Source: the human T2T-CHM13v2.0 reference genome, Homo sapiens
Reading direction: 5' to 3' (one strand)
DNA: 64,000 nucleotides
Assembly: GCF_009914755.1 (NCBI RefSeq)
Contig: NC_060926.1
A model generated the notes under the pieces. It saw only the letters and a program-made list of their open reading frames with translations. It did no database searches and was not told where the DNA came from. Position 1 is the first letter of the stretch. Each line of letters starts with the position of its first letter. The translations under genes were made by a program, and so were the position numbers. Shown piece after piece: positions 39,534-57,420 of the stretch.

Positions 39534-39691
39534 CTCTCCAGGTGCTGTTCTTTCTATCTCTAGTTTCTTGGCCCTGGCTTTTCTCTCCAATATGGTCGAG
39601 AACTACGGCAAGCCCATCAATCTCTGTTCCCTGCTTTTCTTCCAAGGCTCTCTCTGTCTCAGCTTGTGACTTGAATTCAATATATGCAATC
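39534..39691 (-). pseudogene. NCL-paralog exon 9 (158 nt, open frame)
   Basis: ttgcag|G IAYIEFKSQAETERALEEKQGTEIDGLAVVLDHIGEKSQGQETRDRKNSTWR G|gtgagg; same length and phase as NCL exon 9 (82-239). Confidence 0.95.
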
Positions 39692-39879
39692 CTGCAATTG
39701 TGGGGATGAGGTGAGGGAGAGAAGAACAGTCAGCATTTAGGGCCACAGACAGTTATTTGTCTTCTGAATCAGTAATATACAAGATTCAAAATCCAAAAAG
39801 TAGAAAAGGATATGGTTTAGAACATGTAGAAAAAGGAAAAAAAAAAAGGATATGGTGTAGTCTTCCTTATATTCCTATT

Positions 39880-42800
39880 CCAGGCCACCCAATTTCTAAC
39901 CACAGAGGGAACATTCTGTGTATATAAAAGCAAATGTATATGCACACACAATTTTTCTTAAAAAGCTTGAGATATAATTTACATATCATAAAATCCACCC
40001 ATTTAAACTTTACAACGGTTTCTAATACGTTTACACAACTGTACAATCATCATTGTAAACTAACTTTGGAACATTTGTATTGTCCCCGAAAGTACCCATC
40101 GGCAGTCACTCCTCATTCCTCCCAACCCATTCTCACTCCAAGCCACAAGCAACTACTGCTCTAGTTTCTGTTTATATAGATTTGGCTATACTGGACATGT
40201 CATATACAGAATGACATACCATACTTTATCAATCCATCAACTGACAGACATTTTGGGTCATTTCTACTTTTTGACTATTAAATAATGCTGACATGAACAT
40301 TTGCAGGAGAGTGTGAACATATGTTTTCTTTTCTTTGAGGTAGATACTTAAGAGAATTTCTAGACCATATGGCAATTCTATGTTTAACATTTTGAGAAAC
40401 TATCAAACTTCTCCAAAGCAACTGCATTATTTTACATTCCCACCAGCAACATATGAGGGCTCCACCTTTTCCACATCCTTGTCAACATTTGTTACGGTTT
40501 GCCTTCTTTATTCTAGCCATTCTAATGAATGTGAAGTGTATCACATCATGGTTTTGATTTGCATTTCCCTAACAACTAATGTTGAGCATCTTTTTGCATG
40601 CTTATCAGCCATTCATATGCCTCGTTTGGAGAAACGTCCATTCAAATCCTTTGCCCATTTTTTAATTGGGTTGCCTTTTTATTGTTGAATTGTAATATGA
40701 GTTCTTTATATATCTGGACACAAGTCCCTTATCAGATATATGATTTGCAAATATTTTCTTCCAGTCTATAGATTTTTTTTTTTCTTTTTTTTTGAGACGG
40801 AGTTTCACTTGTTGCCCAGGCTGGAGTGCAATGGCACAATCTCGGCTCACTGCAATCTCCACCTCCCAGGTTCAAGCGATTCTCCTGCCTCAGTCTCCCA
40901 AGTAGCTGGGATTACAGGCGCTCACCGCCGCGCCTGGCTAATTTTGTATTTTTAGTAGAGACGGGGTTTTGCCATGTTGGCCAGGCTGGTCTCTAACTCC
41001 TGACCTCGGGTGATCCACCCACTTTGGCCTCCCAAAGTGCTGGGATTACAGGCGTGAGCCACTGTGCCCGGCAAGTCTATAGATTTTCTTTTTCTTTTTT
41101 TTTTTTTTTTGAGGAGTCTCGCTCTATCGCCCAGGCTGGAGTGCAGTGGCACTATCTCGGCTCACTGCAAGCTCCGCCTCCCAGGTTCACGCCATTCTCC
41201 TGCCTCAGCCTTCCGAGTAGCTGGGACTACAGGCGCCCACCACCTTGCCCGGCTAACTTTTTTTGTATTTTTAGTAGAGACGGGGTTTCACCATCTTAGC
41301 CATGATGGTCTCGATCTCCTGACCTCGTGATCCGCCCGCCTCGGCCTCCCAAAGTGCTGGGATTACAGGCGTGAGCCACCACGCCCGGCCCAGTCTACAG
41401 ATTTTCTTTTGACTTTTTAAATATGGCCTTTGAAACACAAACATTTTTTATTTTGATTAAGCCCAACTTCTCAATTTTCTTTAATCGTCGTGCACAAAGT
41501 GTGTTTTCTTCTAAGGATTTTATGTTTTAGCTCTTACATTTAGGTCTTTGATCCATGTTATTTTTTGTGTACAGTGTGTTCTCCATTATGTTTTTACATA
41601 AAAGGCAGAATACTGTACACACTGTCTTTTTTCACTTAATATACACTTTGTCTTTTTTCACTTAATAATGTATACTGGAGATTATTTCCCTTCAGTACAC
41701 AAAATGCGATTTCAGTCCTTTTTACAGCTATATAGAAAAATATCTTATGGATCTGCCAGACAATTTTAACCACCTGTTGCTTGATATTCAGGTTAATTCT
41801 AATTTTGCATCAAACAACTTTGCAATACATTATTTCACACTTGTCTGAGACTATCTGTAGGATAAATTCTTAGGAGTGGAACTGCAAGATAAAATGGTAA
41901 CTGCAACCGTAACTTTGGTAGCTATGGCTAAGTACCTAATCTCCATAGAGATTTCTCCAATTTCACTTCCAATAACAAACTATGAGCATGCCAGTTTCTT
42001 TACTCTCTTCTCCACTGTGCTAACAAACCTTTCGATCTGTGACTACTTGATAGGTAAAAAGTTGTATCTCAGTGTAGATTTTATTTTAAATTGTTTTACT
42101 ATGAGTGAGGATGAGTATCTTTTCCTATGCTTAAAACTCCGTTCCTGTCTGTCTGTAGCCTGCCTGTATTTCCCCTAAATTGTTGGTATTTTTCTTACTC
42201 ATTTGTTAGGTGCACTTTTATTTTATTTATTTATTTATTTTTGAGACGGAGTCTTGCTCTGTTGCCCAGGCTGGAGTGCAATGGCGCGATCTCGGCTCAC
42301 TGCAACCTCCGCCTCCCAGGTTCAAGCGATTCTCCTGCCTCAGCTTCCCGAGTAGCTGGGATTACAGGTGCCCGCCACCACGCCTGGCTAATTTTTTCTG
42401 TTTTTAGTAGAGACAGGTTTCACCATGCTGGCCAGGCTGGTCTGGAACTCCTGACCTTAGGTGATCTGCCCACCTTGGCCTCCCAAAGTGCTTGGATTAC
42501 AGGCGTGAGCCACCACACCTGGCCTTCAGAAGGTTTCATCGTGGGGACATGCTTTATTTTTATTTATTATTATTTTTTAAGATGGAGTTTCACTCTTGTT
42601 GCTCAGGTTGGAGTGCAATGGTGCAATCTCGGCTCACTAACCTCCGCCTCCCGGGTTCAAGTGATTCTCGTGCCTCAGCCTCCCAAGTAGCTGGGACTAC
42701 AGGTGCCTGCCACCATGCCTGGCTAATTTTTTGTATTTTTAGTAGAGACAGGGTTTTACCATGTTGACCAGGCTGGTCTCGAACTCCTGACCTCAGGTGA

Positions 42801-43800
42801 TCCACCTGCCTCAGCCTCCCAAAGTGCTGGGATTACAGGCGTGAGCCACCATGCCTGGCCTGGTGCACTTTTTTTTGAGAGGCAGTCTTGCTTTGTCGCC
42901 CAGGCTGGAGTGCAGTGGCGCGATCTCGGCTCACTACAACCTCTGCCTCCCGGGATCAAGCGATTCTTCTGCCTCAGCCTCCTGAGTAGCTGGGATTACA
43001 GGCGCATACCACCATGCCTGGCTAATTTTTTCTATTTTTAGTAGAGACGGGGTTTCACCATGTTAGCCAGGATGGTCTCAAACTCCCGACTTCAGGTGAT
43101 CCGCCTGCCTCGGCCTCCCAAAGCGCTGGGATTACAGGCGTGAGCCACTGCACCTGGCCTCTGGTGCACTTTTATATCAGTAAAACCAGTCTTCAGTTTT
43201 GATGAGTTACCAATATTTTTCCCTGGTGTGTCACTTGTCTTTTGACTTTGCTTATGGGGATTTTTTTTTCCTCCATGTAAAAATATATTTCTGCAGTCAA
43301 ATTTATATATCTTTTTTTTTTTTCTTTGAGACAGAGTTTCCCTCGCTCTTGTCACCCAGGCTGTTGTGCAATGGCATGATCTCAGCACACTGCAACCTCC
43401 ACCTCCTGGGTTCAAGCGATTCTCCTGCCTCAGCCTCCCGAGTAGCTGGGATTACAGGCGCCCACCATCATGCTCAGCTAATTTTTTTGTATTTTTAGTA
43501 GAGACAGGGTTTCACCATGTTGGCCAGGCTGGTGTGGAACTCCTAACCTCAGGTGATCCACCCGCCTCGGCCTCCCAAAGTGCTGGAATTACAGGTGTGA
43601 GTCATTGTGCCTAGCCAAATTTATATAACTTTTCTTTTGGGACTTCCAGGATTGTGTCATACTTCAAAAGGCCTTCCTCTCCTGAAGATTATTAAAACAA
43701 ATAAAACCCAAAAATATTCTCTATGTCTTCCTCTAATACTTTATGGTTTCATATTTTACATGAAATCTCTAATGAACCTGTAATTTAATTTGGTGAAAGG
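39880..43800 (-). mobile_element. Old L1M fragments with a dense cluster of minus-strand Alus (paralog intron 8)
   Basis: ttttacattcccaccagcaa, gttttgatttgcatttccct, cccttatcagatatatgatttgcaaatattt L1 motifs. Confidence 0.75.
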
Positions 43801-56001: not shown

Positions 56002-56074
56002 CTCATCTTCCCCATCTTCTACCTCCTTTGGGGAAAGACTTATTTTCTTCAGTTCACCTTGACCTTTTTTCCTG
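55966..56074 (-). pseudogene. NCL-paralog exon 2
   Basis: [35 protein letters not shown]|gtaatt vs NCL GKNQGDPKKMAPPPKEVEEDSEDEEMSEDEEDDSSGEE|gtaatt; tandem GAG-CAG acceptor (56074 or 56071). Confidence 0.9.
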
Positions 56075-56669
56075 CTCAAAATAGACAAGATTATTATTAG
56101 GCACATGACAAGGCCTTCACACATTCCAAGCCAGGCACGTTTTGTCTCTGGTATTTCCAACAGTAAACTGGCATTTGGAATAAACTTATGTTAGGCCTCA
56201 TCTTAACTTTTAATTTTCATTTGGTATCTTTTACTCACACCAGCGAACAGAAAAACAAATACAAAAGGTGATTTTTGATGTTGTAGGTGAGGTCTCCCAT
56301 ACCTCTTCTTTTGCCACAATCGATAAGTGGAAACTCCTTAAGAAAAAAAAAAAAAAAAAAAAAGACAAATTCCCAGGAATTCCTTCCTATTCCTCTCATT
56401 CTGATCCGTCACGTGTTTTCAAGTAACTGTTTAAAAAATATATATATAGTTCCACTACAGACTACTCAAATGGAAGCACATTGGGCCAAAATACAGGGGA
56501 CAAAGGGCCAAAAACAGTACCTGCAATTCAAGTACCTTTACTTCGCCAGTCAGATAATTCTGTGAACTGGGTCAGCGTCCATCACTACCCCCACCAGAAT
56601 TCAGAACACACATGAGTCTATAACCCTCGCTGCCCACAGCAGCCCTTGTCCCTAACAGGTTTTCCTTTA

Positions 56670-57420
56670 AGGCTGTCGCGGTGCGCCCCTGCAAGCCACC
56701 GCGCGTGACGGACGCGGGCACGACGCCTGGGGACAGCCCGAAGAAAACCGCAGGCGCCGACACGCTGGTGACGCCCTCTCAGCTATTGCCCCAGATCCAA
56801 GGCGCGCGGGGAAGACGGCCACGTAAAGATACGGCGCCCTGGTGACTCCGCCTCGCCCAATCAGAGCCCGCGCAACCCCTGAACCAATCCTGAGCCGCGA
56901 CCCTGGGAGGGGCGGGCGGTGCGGGAGCCTGGGGGCGTGAGTCTTGAGCCGGGGTGGAGGGGGGGCCGCACGTGCTGCGCCTGCGCGTGGAGCGGACATT
57001 TTGCTGCGGTCTAGCGCGGGAGGCGGGGTTTTGGGTTCGCTGGTCCAGGTGCGCGCGGTGTCCCAGGTCTTCGCGCCAGGTTGGCGCGGGAGAAGGCCGA
57101 GGTGCCCCAGAGTTCGAGGAGTTGGTGACGGTCACGCGGTGCGACGCTCCATGGCGGAGGGGCAGTCGGAAAGTGAATAGCACTCGTTAAAAGCGACCAG
57201 TCCGTAAGGGCGCGTGTGTCGGCGCCGTTACGGACCCCAGCGCTCGGGGTCGTTAAACCGTTTAAGTCGCGTCCCGCCCAGTGAGGGCTATGTTAGCGTC
57301 CTCGCCGTTTCCAGCCGTGAAGGAGGCACTGAGACGACAGCTGAGGGTCTCTCCGTTAAGGCTGTCGCTGCTGTAGGGGCCCTCGCCCGCTGCGTGTTTG
57401 TGCCACCCAGCGTACTGGGT
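56670..57420. promoter_or_regulatory. CpG island promoter of the NCL paralog/LINC00471, homologous to the NCL promoter
   Basis: acggcgccctggtgactccgc (56831) vs NCL acggcgccctcgtgactccgc (6972); CCAATC boxes and GC box in the same order. Confidence 0.85.

What the first reader, a model, noticed from the sequence alone, without database searches (positions are those of the whole stretch)
39534..56920. Unprocessed tandem NCL paralog whose coding exons look only recently released from selection
Exons 5, 6, 8 and 9 have exactly the NCL lengths (87, 142, 124, 158 nt), phases and canonical GT-AG ends. Exons 4-9 (756 nt with the Alu removed) contain no stop codon despite only ~65-71% aa identity in exons 6 and 8. 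Many substitutions are conservative (I/L, D/E, R/K, S/T), and the RNP motifs are kept ([28 protein letters not shown]). Most intron sequence is not alignable by eye. This suggests an old duplication that stayed coding for a long time, a second nucleolin-family gene hidden under a lncRNA annotation.
Basis: partly seen in the sequence, partly recalled or inferred. Interest (0 to 1): 0.88.

Follow-up and report, generated by a model that had tools for sequence, protein, structure and literature searches.

The report
Dead nucleolin-transposase fusion gene under LINC00471
The non-coding RNA gene LINC00471 beside the human nucleolin gene is the decayed human copy of a gene that many other placental mammals still keep open: half of a duplicated nucleolin gene spliced onto a tamed transposase.

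Summary
A colinear, intron-containing copy of NCL exons 2-9 lies on the minus strand at 39534-56071. Exons 5, 6, 8 and 9 have the exact NCL lengths, and all six exons 4-9 have AG/GT ends. Exons 4-9 with the Alu removed (749 nt by my boundaries, not 756) read open for 249 codons. RefSeq exons 2, 3 and 5 plus paralog exons 6-9 read open for 298 codons (0 of 20000 shuffles).

An unannotated hAT (GTF2IRD2/Charlie8-like) transposase ORF lies 1.7 kb downstream of exon 9, at 36091-37853. It is 78-82% identical to cat, rhino and elephant proteins. In cat, lynx, elephant, rhino, three bats, whales and a seal, predicted proteins join the nucleolin-like RRMs to this transposase at one fixed point.

The human copy is broken. 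A conserved start codon is ATA, an Alu sits in exon 7, and the transposase part has four frameshifts and three stops. The annotated RNAs end in intron 8. Replacements at conserved sites are no more frequent than in open orthologues, so constraint was lost late, within primates. I found no published description.

The parts
56521..56816 (-). Exon 1 (RefSeq LINC00471 exon 1), next to a GC-rich promoter-like stretch. It holds an ATG at 56580-56582 followed by in-frame stops TGA 56550-56552 and TAA 56538-56540.
   Evidence: Hub annotation table. GC is 0.62-0.735 over about 56600-57400. The human reading MDADPVHRII*LAK* resembles the seal (MDAAPLNTEF) and gray-whale model N-termini.
55966..56071 (-). 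Exon 2, the homologue of NCL exon 2 (106 nt against 117). The Met at which the cat, elephant, rhino and manatee models start is ATA (Ile) in human at 56041-56043. The next in-frame ATG is at 55999-56001.
   Evidence: blastn 76.6%, alignment, translation, orthologue N-termini.
51617..51782 (-). Exon 3, a shrunken homologue of the NCL basic/acidic exon 3 (166 nt against 478). It is also a RefSeq LINC00471 exon.
   Evidence: Weak tblastn match to NCL (E 0.018). 62% identity over 52 residues to the rhino orthologue (E 7e-13).
49987..50111 (-). Exon 4 relic (acidic), 125 nt against 198. It has AG/GT ends and is open in the NCL frame, but it is out of phase with exon 3 and is in no listed RefSeq transcript.
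   Evidence: Only a weak match to the elephant protein (8 of 14 residues, E 0.009).
49608..49694 (-). Exon 5 (87 nt, the same length as in NCL). It is identical to a RefSeq LINC00471 exon.
   Evidence: hub annotation.
48939..49080 (-). Exon 6 (142 nt, the same length as in NCL), the first half of RRM1 with LFVGNL. Not annotated in RefSeq.
46574..46996 (-). Exon 7, the second half of RRM1 (RRFGYVNF), split by an antisense Alu. The Alu and its A-tail lie at 46680-46974, with 15-nt target-site copies at 46665-46679 and 46975-46989. Without the insert the exon is 113 nt against 125. RefSeq uses an acceptor inside the Alu (exon 46574-46795).
   Evidence: The exonised Alu supplies the stop that ends the 114-residue ORF.
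45520..45643 (-). Exon 8 (124 nt, the same length as in NCL), the first half of RRM2 (LLIKNL). The last RefSeq exon starts at the same acceptor and reads through the donor to 44526.
   Evidence: hub annotation. Minus-strand AATAAA copies at 44542-44558.
39534..39691 (-). Exon 9 (158 nt, the same length as in NCL), the second half of RRM2 (KKIAYIEF) and the linker. Its GT donor is kept. Not annotated.
   Evidence: As a query it finds the orthologues.
36091..37853 (-). hAT (Charlie8/GTF2IRD2-like) transposase-derived ORF, about 587 codons, unannotated. The ATG is at 37851-37853. The splice acceptor AG is at 37831-37832, so the first base of the fused exon is 37830. Lesions: a frameshift in the T-run 37762-37770; TGA at 37732-37734; a frameshift just before 37738; a frameshift near 37055; TAG at 36795-36797; TAA at 36603-36605; a frameshift near 36147. 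The natural stop is at 36091-36093. A 282-codon stretch (36968-37813) is still open.
   Evidence: Identity to orthologues is 78-88%.
36031..36036 (-). AATAAA about 55 nt downstream of the transposase stop. It is a candidate poly(A) signal of the ancestral fused gene.
   Evidence: This is a pattern match only, and the assignment is inferred.

Best explanation
Window 36091-56816 (minus strand) is the pseudogenised human orthologue of a placental host-transposase fusion gene.

Origin (inferred). NCL was duplicated in tandem before the placental radiation. A Charlie8-like hAT transposon then landed in what had been intron 9 of the upstream copy. A splice acceptor that lies a few codons inside the transposase ORF captured splicing from exon 9. 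The new gene therefore encodes a shortened nucleolin N-terminus, RRM1 and RRM2, and then a zinc finger, an RNase-H-like domain and the C-terminal part of the transposase. NCL exons 10-14 were lost.

Likely mode of action of the intact protein (inferred). It no longer transposes, because the aligned first catalytic Asp is His or Gln in every member. I expect a nuclear or nucleolar nucleic-acid-binding regulator: nucleolin-type RRMs read RNA, and the transposase part supplies DNA binding and self-association, as is proposed for GTF2IRD2.

Fate in human (shown). Many placentals keep the reading frame open. On the human line constraint was lost within primates. The promoter and the splice sites of exons 1, 2, 3, 5, 7 and 8 still work and give the lncRNA LINC00471, which ends in intron 8. 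Exon 9 and the transposase ORF are silent, lightly damaged relics.
For: The paralog is real and exon-for-exon like NCL.

The transposase relic lies 1.7 kb downstream of exon 9, on the same strand.

Fused proteins. Eleven database clusters carry both RRM_1 and the FAM200/ZBED5 RNase-like transposase family as precomputed Pfam domains: P0058, P0060, P0061, P0069 and P0142-P0144, P0146-P0149. The rhino P0141 has an RRM and the Spin-doc zinc finger in my own scan. P0142 is a 711-residue ORF running through exons 7, 8 and 9 into the transposase on a 2546-nt contig, so that contig is spliced RNA.

Junction. In 8 of 8 fused rows the nucleolin part ends with exon 9 and joins directly before GK(R/Q)(K/R). 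The same point is used in 2 of 2 ubiquitin-hAT fusions and 3 of 3 GTF2IRD2 rows. Three stand-alone ORFs begin MSLSKVGKRK, and the horse model begins MHLSLSKVGKRK. Human keeps the AG and the exon 9 GT, and the joined phase gives Val.

Orthology. The RRM tree puts 14 paralog rows in one clade (100/100). The transposase tree puts 13 rows in one clade (100/100). Both have species-like topology: elephant with manatee or sloth; human with Rhinopithecus and Cebus, or with Aotus and Otolemur.

Constraint. Cat against elephant is 80% identical and cat against rhino 86% over 557 transposase columns, with open frames. Root-to-tip lengths are 0.09-0.15, the same order as GTF2IRD2. Human NCL against the paralog gives dN/dS 0.34 (bootstrap 0.22-0.51) and dS 0.61.

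Late loss in human. The human path length of 0.135 lies inside the range of open orthologues. Human departs from conserved columns at 6 of 71 (RRM part) and 20 of 326 (transposase part), against 1.6-16.7% and 4.3-12.6% in the other rows. A 298-codon frame is still open (0 of 20000 shuffles). In my simulation the chance of no new stop falls to 0.04 at 0.12 substitutions per site.

Death in human: ATA at the conserved Met, the Alu, four frameshifts and three stops, and a 114-residue longest ORF.

Catalytic site: the aligned first Asp is H or Q in 13 of 13 fused-clade rows and D in 8 of 8 other rows.
Against: All non-human evidence is protein-level, and most of it comes from automatic gene models. 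No mammalian DNA was available, so I could not run a codon-level test, check synteny, or date the lesions.

Some species have only transposase-only models (horse P0081, sloth P0082, Otolemur P0151) or short RRM-only models. Many isoforms skip RRM1, including the long cat and elephant models.

The N-terminus is unsettled. Different models start in exon 1, in exon 2, or in another frame.

The pairwise dN/dS interval (up to 0.51) touches the roughly 0.5 expected if one copy had been neutral throughout. That number alone does not show constraint.

The RRM tree does not date the duplication. Paralog plus eutherian NCL has only 81/66 support, and the two alternatives are not rejected (AU p 0.16 and 0.35).

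The hAT assignment rests on similarity to GTF2IRD2 and on weak Pfam hits. No terminal inverted repeats were found, and the fold was not tested.

That the Asp in question is the catalytic one is my recollection.
Confidence: 0.85

Rival explanations
1. There are two neighbouring genes, not one: a short two-RRM nucleolin-like gene, and a separately domesticated transposase gene. On this reading the fused proteins are read-through or gene-model artefacts.
For: Transposase-only models exist in horse, sloth, Otolemur and Rousettus, and one starts at its own Met, MHLSLSKVGKRK. Short RRM-only models exist in primates, hippo and Leptonychotes. A paper warns that 'GTF2IRD2-like' names often mark misannotated transposons, although it concerns non-mammals (PMC10641963, passages read).
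Against: The same junction appears in 8 of 8 fused rows from cat, elephant, bat, rhino, seal, whale and anteater, plus one unnamed transcript-like contig. The bat proteins carry names unlike NCBI's automatic ones and so seem to come from other annotation pipelines. P0142 sits on a 2546-nt contig that cannot hold the introns. The phase of exon 9 fits the acceptor in human DNA.
Confidence: 0.1
2. The human locus is not dead. Either LINC00471 makes the 114-residue nucleolin-N-terminus-like peptide, or the RNA itself is kept for a function. On this reading the open frame reflects present selection.
For: An ATG-started 114-residue ORF is the longest in NR_199860.1. The splice sites of five ancestral exons are still used (hub annotation). 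The promoter region is GC-rich. Exons 2-9 hold no stop.
Against: The ORF ends inside an exonised Alu and contains no RRM. The conserved Met is lost. Exons 6 and 9 and the transposase are not in any listed transcript. The transposase part has seven disabling lesions. An open frame of this length is still compatible with roughly 0.01-0.05 substitutions per site of neutral drift.
Confidence: 0.1
3. The copy is an ordinary unprocessed pseudogene that has been neutral since the duplication, and its exon similarity is kept up by gene conversion from NCL.
For: It lies in tandem with NCL. Also, the N-terminal part of the Myotis protein is much closer to Myotis NCL than its RRMs are, which hints at conversion in bats or a chimeric model.
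Against: dS is 0.61 and the longest identical run is 23 nt. Paralog-specific residues are shared across 14 rows. Orthologues have open frames of 700-990 codons.
Confidence: 0.01

Closest known systems
GTF2IRD2 / GTF2IRD2B (GTF2I-repeat protein fused to a Charlie8-like hAT transposase; placental mammals)
   Same: The transposase parts are sister clades (90/84) and 67-68% identical over 517 columns. The host part joins the transposase directly before GKRK, the same point as here. Both are described as or appear to be placental (Cosby preprint passage). Both carry the Spin-doc-type zinc finger and the same RNase-like domains.
   Different: The host part here is nucleolin-derived (RRMs) rather than GTF2I repeats. 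The aligned first catalytic Asp is kept in GTF2IRD2 (3 of 3 rows) and lost here (13 of 13). GTF2IRD2 is intact in human, whereas this gene is not.
NCL (nucleolin), the parent gene 30 kb downstream
   Same: Exon order, phases and four exact exon lengths match. Identity is 65% at the amino-acid level and 77% at the nucleotide level over exons 5-9. The RNP motifs of RRM1 and RRM2 are kept. The Myotis orthologue matches solved nucleolin RBD1-2 structures at E 1e-58 to 1e-80.
   Different: There is no RRM3, RRM4 or GAR tail, and no trace of exons 10-14. The N-terminal exons are shrunken. There is no SNORD82 relic. Tip branch lengths in the RRM tree are 0.08-0.24 for 12 of 14 paralog rows (about 0.01 for the two whale rows), against 0-0.03 for eutherian NCL.
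Host-transposase fusion genes born by transposase capture (KRABINER, SETMAR, PGBD3-CSB; Cosby et al., bioRxiv 10.1101/2020.05.07.082677, passages read)
   Same: The route matches the three steps they describe: insertion into an intron, splicing through an acceptor supplied by the transposon at the start of its ORF, then selection. They report an acceptor immediately upstream of the ORF in 8 of 9 cases.
   Different: The host domain here binds RNA, whereas the KRAB, SCAN and SET domains they stress act on chromatin. The parent was a fresh duplicate, so NCL itself was untouched. The words nucleolin, NCL and RRM do not occur in their main text.
lncRNAs that are fossils of protein-coding genes (Hezroni et al. 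2017, PMC5577775); unitary pseudogenes
   Same: A lncRNA reuses the promoter and splice sites of a lost coding gene that stays coding in other species.
   Different: The ancestral gene is placental-specific and unnamed. LINC00471, C2orf52, NCL and nucleolin have 0 occurrences in the 4 supplementary files of that paper held as text, and the paper is not among the 15 papers whose full text names the locus.

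Membership tests
Nucleolin family (NCL paralog) | NCL exon-intron architecture: exon order, lengths and phases | tested here: met
   Exons 5, 6, 8 and 9 have identical lengths, and all six exons 4-9 have AG/GT ends. Exon 7 is 113 nt against 125 and exon 2 is 106 against 117.
Nucleolin family (NCL paralog) | RRM1 and RRM2 with RNP2/RNP1 motifs | tested here: met
   [20 protein letters not shown] and KKIAYIEF are present in human. RRM_1 is found in orthologues. Nucleolin RBD12 structures are matched at E 1e-58 or better.
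Nucleolin family (NCL paralog) | Four RRMs followed by a Gly/Arg-rich tail | tested here: not met
   tblastn with the NCL C-terminal part gives no hit between 7000 and 39600 other than cross-matches to exon 9. In orthologue proteins the transposase follows exon 9 directly.
Host-transposase fusion gene | A transposase-derived domain on its own exon, spliced to host exons through an acceptor at the start of the transposase ORF | tested here: met
   The junction is the same in 8 of 8 fused rows. The human AG at 37831-37832 and the phase-1 donor of exon 9 are compatible.
Host-transposase fusion gene | Kept by purifying selection across species | tested here: inconclusive
   At the protein level it holds: open frames of 711-988 residues, 80-86% identity between orders, and species-like trees. 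Codon-level dN/dS needs DNA of other mammals, which is not held here.
hAT superfamily, Charlie8 / FAM200-ZBED5-GTF2IRD2 group | Sequence homology to a known hAT-derived transposase domain | tested here: met
   67-68% identity to the GTF2IRD2 transposase part. Precomputed Pfam domains PF27073, PF27046 and PF14291. The Spin-doc zinc finger is found in 37 of 41 rows of alignment A1.
hAT superfamily, Charlie8 / FAM200-ZBED5-GTF2IRD2 group | hAT C-terminal dimerisation domain (PF05699) | tested here: inconclusive
   11 of 41 rows of A1 match at E up to 0.01. None of the four fused proteins scanned at E up to 0.001 match.
hAT superfamily, Charlie8 / FAM200-ZBED5-GTF2IRD2 group | Intact DDE catalytic triad | tested here: not met
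   The aligned first Asp is H or Q in 13 of 13 fused-clade rows and D in 8 of 8 other rows. The later D and E columns are mostly kept. That this column is the catalytic Asp is recalled, not tested.
hAT superfamily, Charlie8 / FAM200-ZBED5-GTF2IRD2 group | Terminal inverted repeats and an 8-bp target-site duplication | tested here: not met
   No convincing flanking inverted repeat in 35700-38700. This is expected for an insertion older than the placental radiation, and an Alu abuts the 5' end.
hAT superfamily, Charlie8 / FAM200-ZBED5-GTF2IRD2 group | RNase-H-like fold resembling Hermes transposase | not tested
   Structure prediction was not accepted. A profile search of solved-structure sequences found nothing at E up to 1.
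Unitary pseudogene | Disabling lesions in human and open orthologues elsewhere | tested here: met
   Lesions. Open orthologues.
Unitary pseudogene | No intact copy elsewhere in the same genome | not testable with these tools
   No human genome is held. The only human-identical cluster found is the 257-residue fragment P0080.

The most novel reading that the evidence does not exclude
An unnamed and so far undescribed placental gene family joins nucleolin's first two RNA-binding domains to a catalytically dead Charlie8-like transposase. It is the third independent capture of the same transposon family through the same acceptor just inside the transposase ORF; the others are GTF2IRD2 and a ubiquitin-like fusion. 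The intact protein would link RNA recognition to a DNA-binding, self-associating scaffold, perhaps at rDNA or in the nucleolus. Anthropoid primates lost it and kept only its promoter and 5' exons as LINC00471.
Probability: 0.45. Interest if true: 0.72.

Novelty: new member of a known kind. Interest (0 to 1): 0.62.

Why it matters
The result gives LINC00471 (formerly C2orf52) an origin. In the papers I found it appears only in expression screens and prognostic signatures. It is a well-preserved example of a lncRNA that is the stump of a lost coding gene.

It points to a real but unnamed gene in cats, horses and rhinos, elephants, bats and whales. Databases currently label that gene 'GTF2IRD2-like' or 'nucleolin-like'.

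It adds an RNA-binding host domain to the list of transposase captures. It also shows one transposon family captured three times at the same splice acceptor, which makes the idea that transposons are primed for exon shuffling directly testable.

The loss in primates, and the apparent absence from rodents among the hits, gives natural knock-outs for asking what the gene does.

Tried and rejected
- **Gene conversion.** Rejected.
- **snoRNA relic.** An Rfam search of 35000-58000 at E up to 0.01 found only Alu-type matches (SRP, mir-1268, mir-3135) and the U2 pseudogene. There is no SNORD82 copy.
- **NCL exons 10-14.** A search downstream of exon 9 found none.
- **Transposon ends.** No terminal inverted repeats around the transposase.
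- **Dating the duplication against marsupial and monotreme NCL.** Unresolved: support 81/66, AU p 0.16 and 0.35.
- **Solved structures for the transposase part.** Nothing by sequence or profile.
- **Structure prediction.** Not accepted twice, so no fold test was made.
- **Exon 4 homology.** Only a weak match to the elephant protein.
- **Alu subfamily.** Not typed with a tool. I report only 13 CpG, an A13 tail and a perfect target-site duplication.
- **Literature.**
  - 0 papers for LINC00471 + nucleolin.
  - 0 for transposase + nucleolin-like + fusion.
  - 0 for transposase + nucleolin + GTF2IRD2.
  - 15 papers name LINC00471 or C2orf52. By title and abstract start, none is about its origin.
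  - One of them, PMC11453068, has 0 occurrences in its main text.
  - 2 papers for unitary pseudogene + nucleolin, both irrelevant by title.
  - The supplements of the Cosby preprint were closed.

Full report
**1. The observation**

The hub table places the window at human chr2 with NCL exons 1-9 at 82-6923 on the minus strand. I rebuilt those exons. Their coding lengths are 18, 117, 478, 198, 87, 142, 125, 124 and 158 nt.

blastn of window 1-7000 against the rest gave hundreds of Alu matches and some low-complexity acidic-repeat matches at 15341-15476. It also gave seven colinear minus-strand matches covering six NCL exons, at 74.8-83.2% identity, between 39529 and 56087. Each match ends within a few bases of the exon. 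tblastn and exon-by-exon alignment confirmed them.

My paralog exons are:
- exon 2: 55966-56071
- exon 3: 51617-51782
- exon 4: 49987-50111
- exon 5: 49608-49694
- exon 6: 48939-49080
- exon 7: 46975-46996 plus 46574-46664
- exon 8: 45520-45643
- exon 9: 39534-39691

Exons 5, 6, 8 and 9 have exactly the NCL lengths, and all six exons 4-9 have AG/GT ends. Exon 7 is split by an antisense 295-nt Alu with a perfect 15-nt target-site duplication.

**2.

RefSeq LINC00471 exons 2, 3 and 5 are the NCL exon homologues, with the same splice sites. Exons 2, 3 and 5-9 joined (896 nt) give 298 codons without a stop. The other two frames hold 31 and 16 stops, and 0 of 20000 composition-preserving shuffles are open.

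Exon 4 (125 nt) is out of phase with exon 3 and is in no listed transcript.

**3. Orthologues**

Exon 9 (52 residues) was searched against the protein database for longer proteins. It returned 79 hits at E up to 0.001 among 102 candidates. Besides true nucleolins at 53-66% identity (mostly 63%), there is a second set at 69-92%. It comes from Rhinopithecus, Cercocebus, Cebus, Callithrix, Tamandua, whales, seals, hippo and manatee, and is named 'nucleolin-like' or 'GTF2IRD2-like'.

Several of these continue after exon 9 into a transposase-like sequence.

**4. The transposase half**

tblastn of those proteins back onto the window found their C-terminal part at 37019-37835, minus strand. This is 1.7 kb downstream of exon 9, and the gap is filled by Alus.

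Sloth, horse and zebra proteins trace the relic from an ATG at 37851-37853 to a stop at 36091-36093, about 587 codons. The lesions are four frameshifts (the T-run 37762-37770, just before 37738, near 37055, near 36147) and three stops (37732-37734, 36795-36797, 36603-36605). A 282-codon stretch is still open.

Nothing is annotated there in the hub table.

No trace of NCL exons 10-14 was found.

**5. Full-length fusion proteins**

I searched with the 282-residue human ORF. Among near-length proteins it found 65 hits at E up to 1e-5. Among longer proteins it found 252 at E up to 1e-10, of which 120 were listed.

The top group, at 63-88% identity, is mammalian:
- Fused RRM-plus-transposase proteins: cat 798 residues, lynx 719, elephant 816, Myotis 956, Cnephaeus 988, Pipistrellus 946, and the unnamed P0142 with 711 residues on a 2546-nt contig.
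- Rhino, 776 residues.
- Transposase-only models: horse, zebra, sloth, Otolemur (517 residues, reaching the natural C-terminus) and Aotus.

Below that group come a ubiquitin-domain fusion (Elephas, Prionailurus; 63-64% in this search) and GTF2IRD2 (48-51% over the N-terminal part). Identity to both is 67-68% over the full alignment.

My Pfam scans give RRM_1 and the Spin-doc zinc finger. The atlas names the neighbouring clusters GTF2IRD2-like, FAM200C, ZBED5-like and EPM2AIP1. The Myotis RRMs match solved nucleolin RBD1-2 at E 1e-58 to 1e-80.

**6. The junction**

In 8 of 8 fused rows exon 9 joins the transposase directly before GK(R/Q)(K/R). The 2 ubiquitin fusions and 3 GTF2IRD2 rows join at the same point. 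Three stand-alone ORFs start MSLSKVGKRK and the horse model starts MHLSLSKVGKRK.

The acceptor therefore lies a few codons inside the transposase ORF, and the same transposon family has been captured three times through it. The three separate captures are my inference from the three different host parts.

Human DNA keeps this AG (37831-37832) and the exon 9 donor. The phases fit, giving G|TG = Val.

This matches the route described by Cosby et al. (preprint passages).

**7. Orthology and constraint**

RRM tree (23 rows, 211 columns). The 14 paralog rows form a clade (100/100) and eutherian NCL forms a clade (100/98). Within the paralog clade, elephant pairs with manatee, hippo with the whales, and Cebus with human and Rhinopithecus. 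Tip lengths are 0.08-0.24 for 12 of the 14 paralog rows (the two whales are about 0.01), against 0-0.03 for eutherian NCL.

Transposase tree (21 rows, 558 columns). The 13 fused-clade rows form a clade (100/100), sister to GTF2IRD2 (90/84), again with a species-like topology. Root-to-tip lengths are: human 0.135, cat 0.093, rhino 0.091, elephant 0.115, Myotis 0.15, Aotus 0.18.

Identity of the human relic to other sequences:

| Compared with | Identity | Columns |
|---|---|---|
| cat | 81% | 557 |
| rhino | 82% | 558 |
| elephant | 78% | 558 |
| Otolemur | 82% | 496 |
| Aotus | 88% | 301 |

For comparison, cat against elephant is 80%.

Open frames of 700-990 codons in several orders, at this level of identity, cannot be neutral over the age of the placental orders. 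That last step is inference from general knowledge of mammalian neutral divergence.

Human NCL against the paralog (207 codons) gives dS 0.61, dN 0.21 and dN/dS 0.34 (bootstrap 0.22-0.51). The longest identical run is 23 nt. This excludes recent conversion. The ratio alone is only marginally below the roughly 0.5 expected for one neutral copy.

**8. Age**

The paralog occurs in Afrotheria, Xenarthra, Laurasiatheria and primates (classification recalled), so the duplication and the capture predate the placental radiation.

Whether they predate the split from marsupials is unresolved. Support is 81/66 and the AU p-values are 0.16 and 0.35. No marsupial, monotreme or rodent member appeared among the hits, which is weak evidence because the lists are capped.

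**9. State in human**

- The Met at which the cat, elephant, rhino and manatee models start is ATA at 56041-56043. It is Val in Cercocebus.
- The exon 1 ATG (56580-56582), which resembles the seal and whale starts, is followed by two stops.
- Exon 7 carries the Alu. It also differs from monkey, whale and bat readings by small deletions. The frame is kept only because the NCL-type donor at 46574 is used.
- The transposase has the seven lesions listed above.
- NR_199860.1 ends in intron 8. Its longest ORF is 114 residues, stops inside the exonised Alu and has no RRM.

**10. When constraint was lost**

Human departs from columns conserved in the other rows at 6 of 71 (RRM part) and 20 of 326 (transposase part). 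This is within the spread of the other rows.

In my simulation, which uses my own assumed mutation model, the chance of no new stop in the 298 codons is 0.43 at 0.03 substitutions per site and 0.04 at 0.12. With an assumed indel rate the joint chance is under 0.05 from 0.03 substitutions per site.

All five anthropoid models are fragments or frame-shifted, whereas Otolemur keeps 517 open codons. The two late human stops are Gln and Ser in Aotus. Rhinopithecus and Cebus read straight across the Alu site.

I conclude that the loss happened within primates. It probably began on the anthropoid line, and lesions are still accumulating. It cannot be dated more closely without primate DNA.

**11. Function of the intact gene (inferred)**

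The aligned first Asp of the transposase motif is H or Q in 13 of 13 fused-clade rows and D in 8 of 8 others, so transposition is unlikely. The RNP residues and the zinc finger are kept in most orthologues; whale, manatee and human read the finger out of frame.

I propose an RNA- and DNA-binding nuclear regulator. Nothing here tests that.

**12. Literature**

No paper found links LINC00471 or C2orf52 to nucleolin or to a transposase.
- Cosby preprint: the main text lacks nucleolin, NCL and RRM, and its supplements were closed.
- Hezroni et al.: the four held supplements lack the locus.
- PMC10641963 (passages read) warns about 'GTF2IRD2-like' labels in non-mammals and does not mention this gene.

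Noticed in passing
proteins P0153 (Elephas) and P0155 (Prionailurus); not in the window: A third fusion of the same transposase family: a ubiquitin-like domain (PF00240) joined at the same GKRK point. It is 88% identical between elephant and cat and keeps the aligned catalytic Asp.
   Followed up: partly
protein P0147 (Myotis) against P0025 (Myotis NCL): The N-terminal 200 residues of the bat fusion protein are far closer to bat NCL than its RRMs are. This suggests gene conversion of the 5' exons in bats, or a chimeric gene model.
   Followed up: no
window 37730-37770, and proteins P0060 and P0063: The CxxC part of the zinc finger is read out of frame in a whale, the manatee and human, with similar residues (M-F/L-N-M-Q). 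In the whale model the frame is restored a few codons upstream. This may be a recurrent slippage site with compensation.
   Followed up: partly
window 44513-44640, minus strand: A U2 snRNA pseudogene (Rfam 77.9 bits) sits in intron 8 just upstream of the LINC00471 3' end. Three AATAAA copies at 44542-44558 lie beside it.
   Followed up: no
window 15341-15476: A low-complexity repeat matches the acidic NCL exons 3 and 4 on the opposite strand at 74-80%. I take it for a simple triplet repeat, not a gene relic.
   Followed up: no
window 35000-58000: All Rfam mir-1268 and mir-3135 matches (below their gathering scores) fall inside Alu elements.
   Followed up: no
proteins P0048 (Kogia, 655 residues) and P0072 (Capra, 416 residues): These 'nucleolin-like' proteins are NCL-type, not paralog-type, by their residues. 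They are probably other NCL copies or retrocopies.
   Followed up: no
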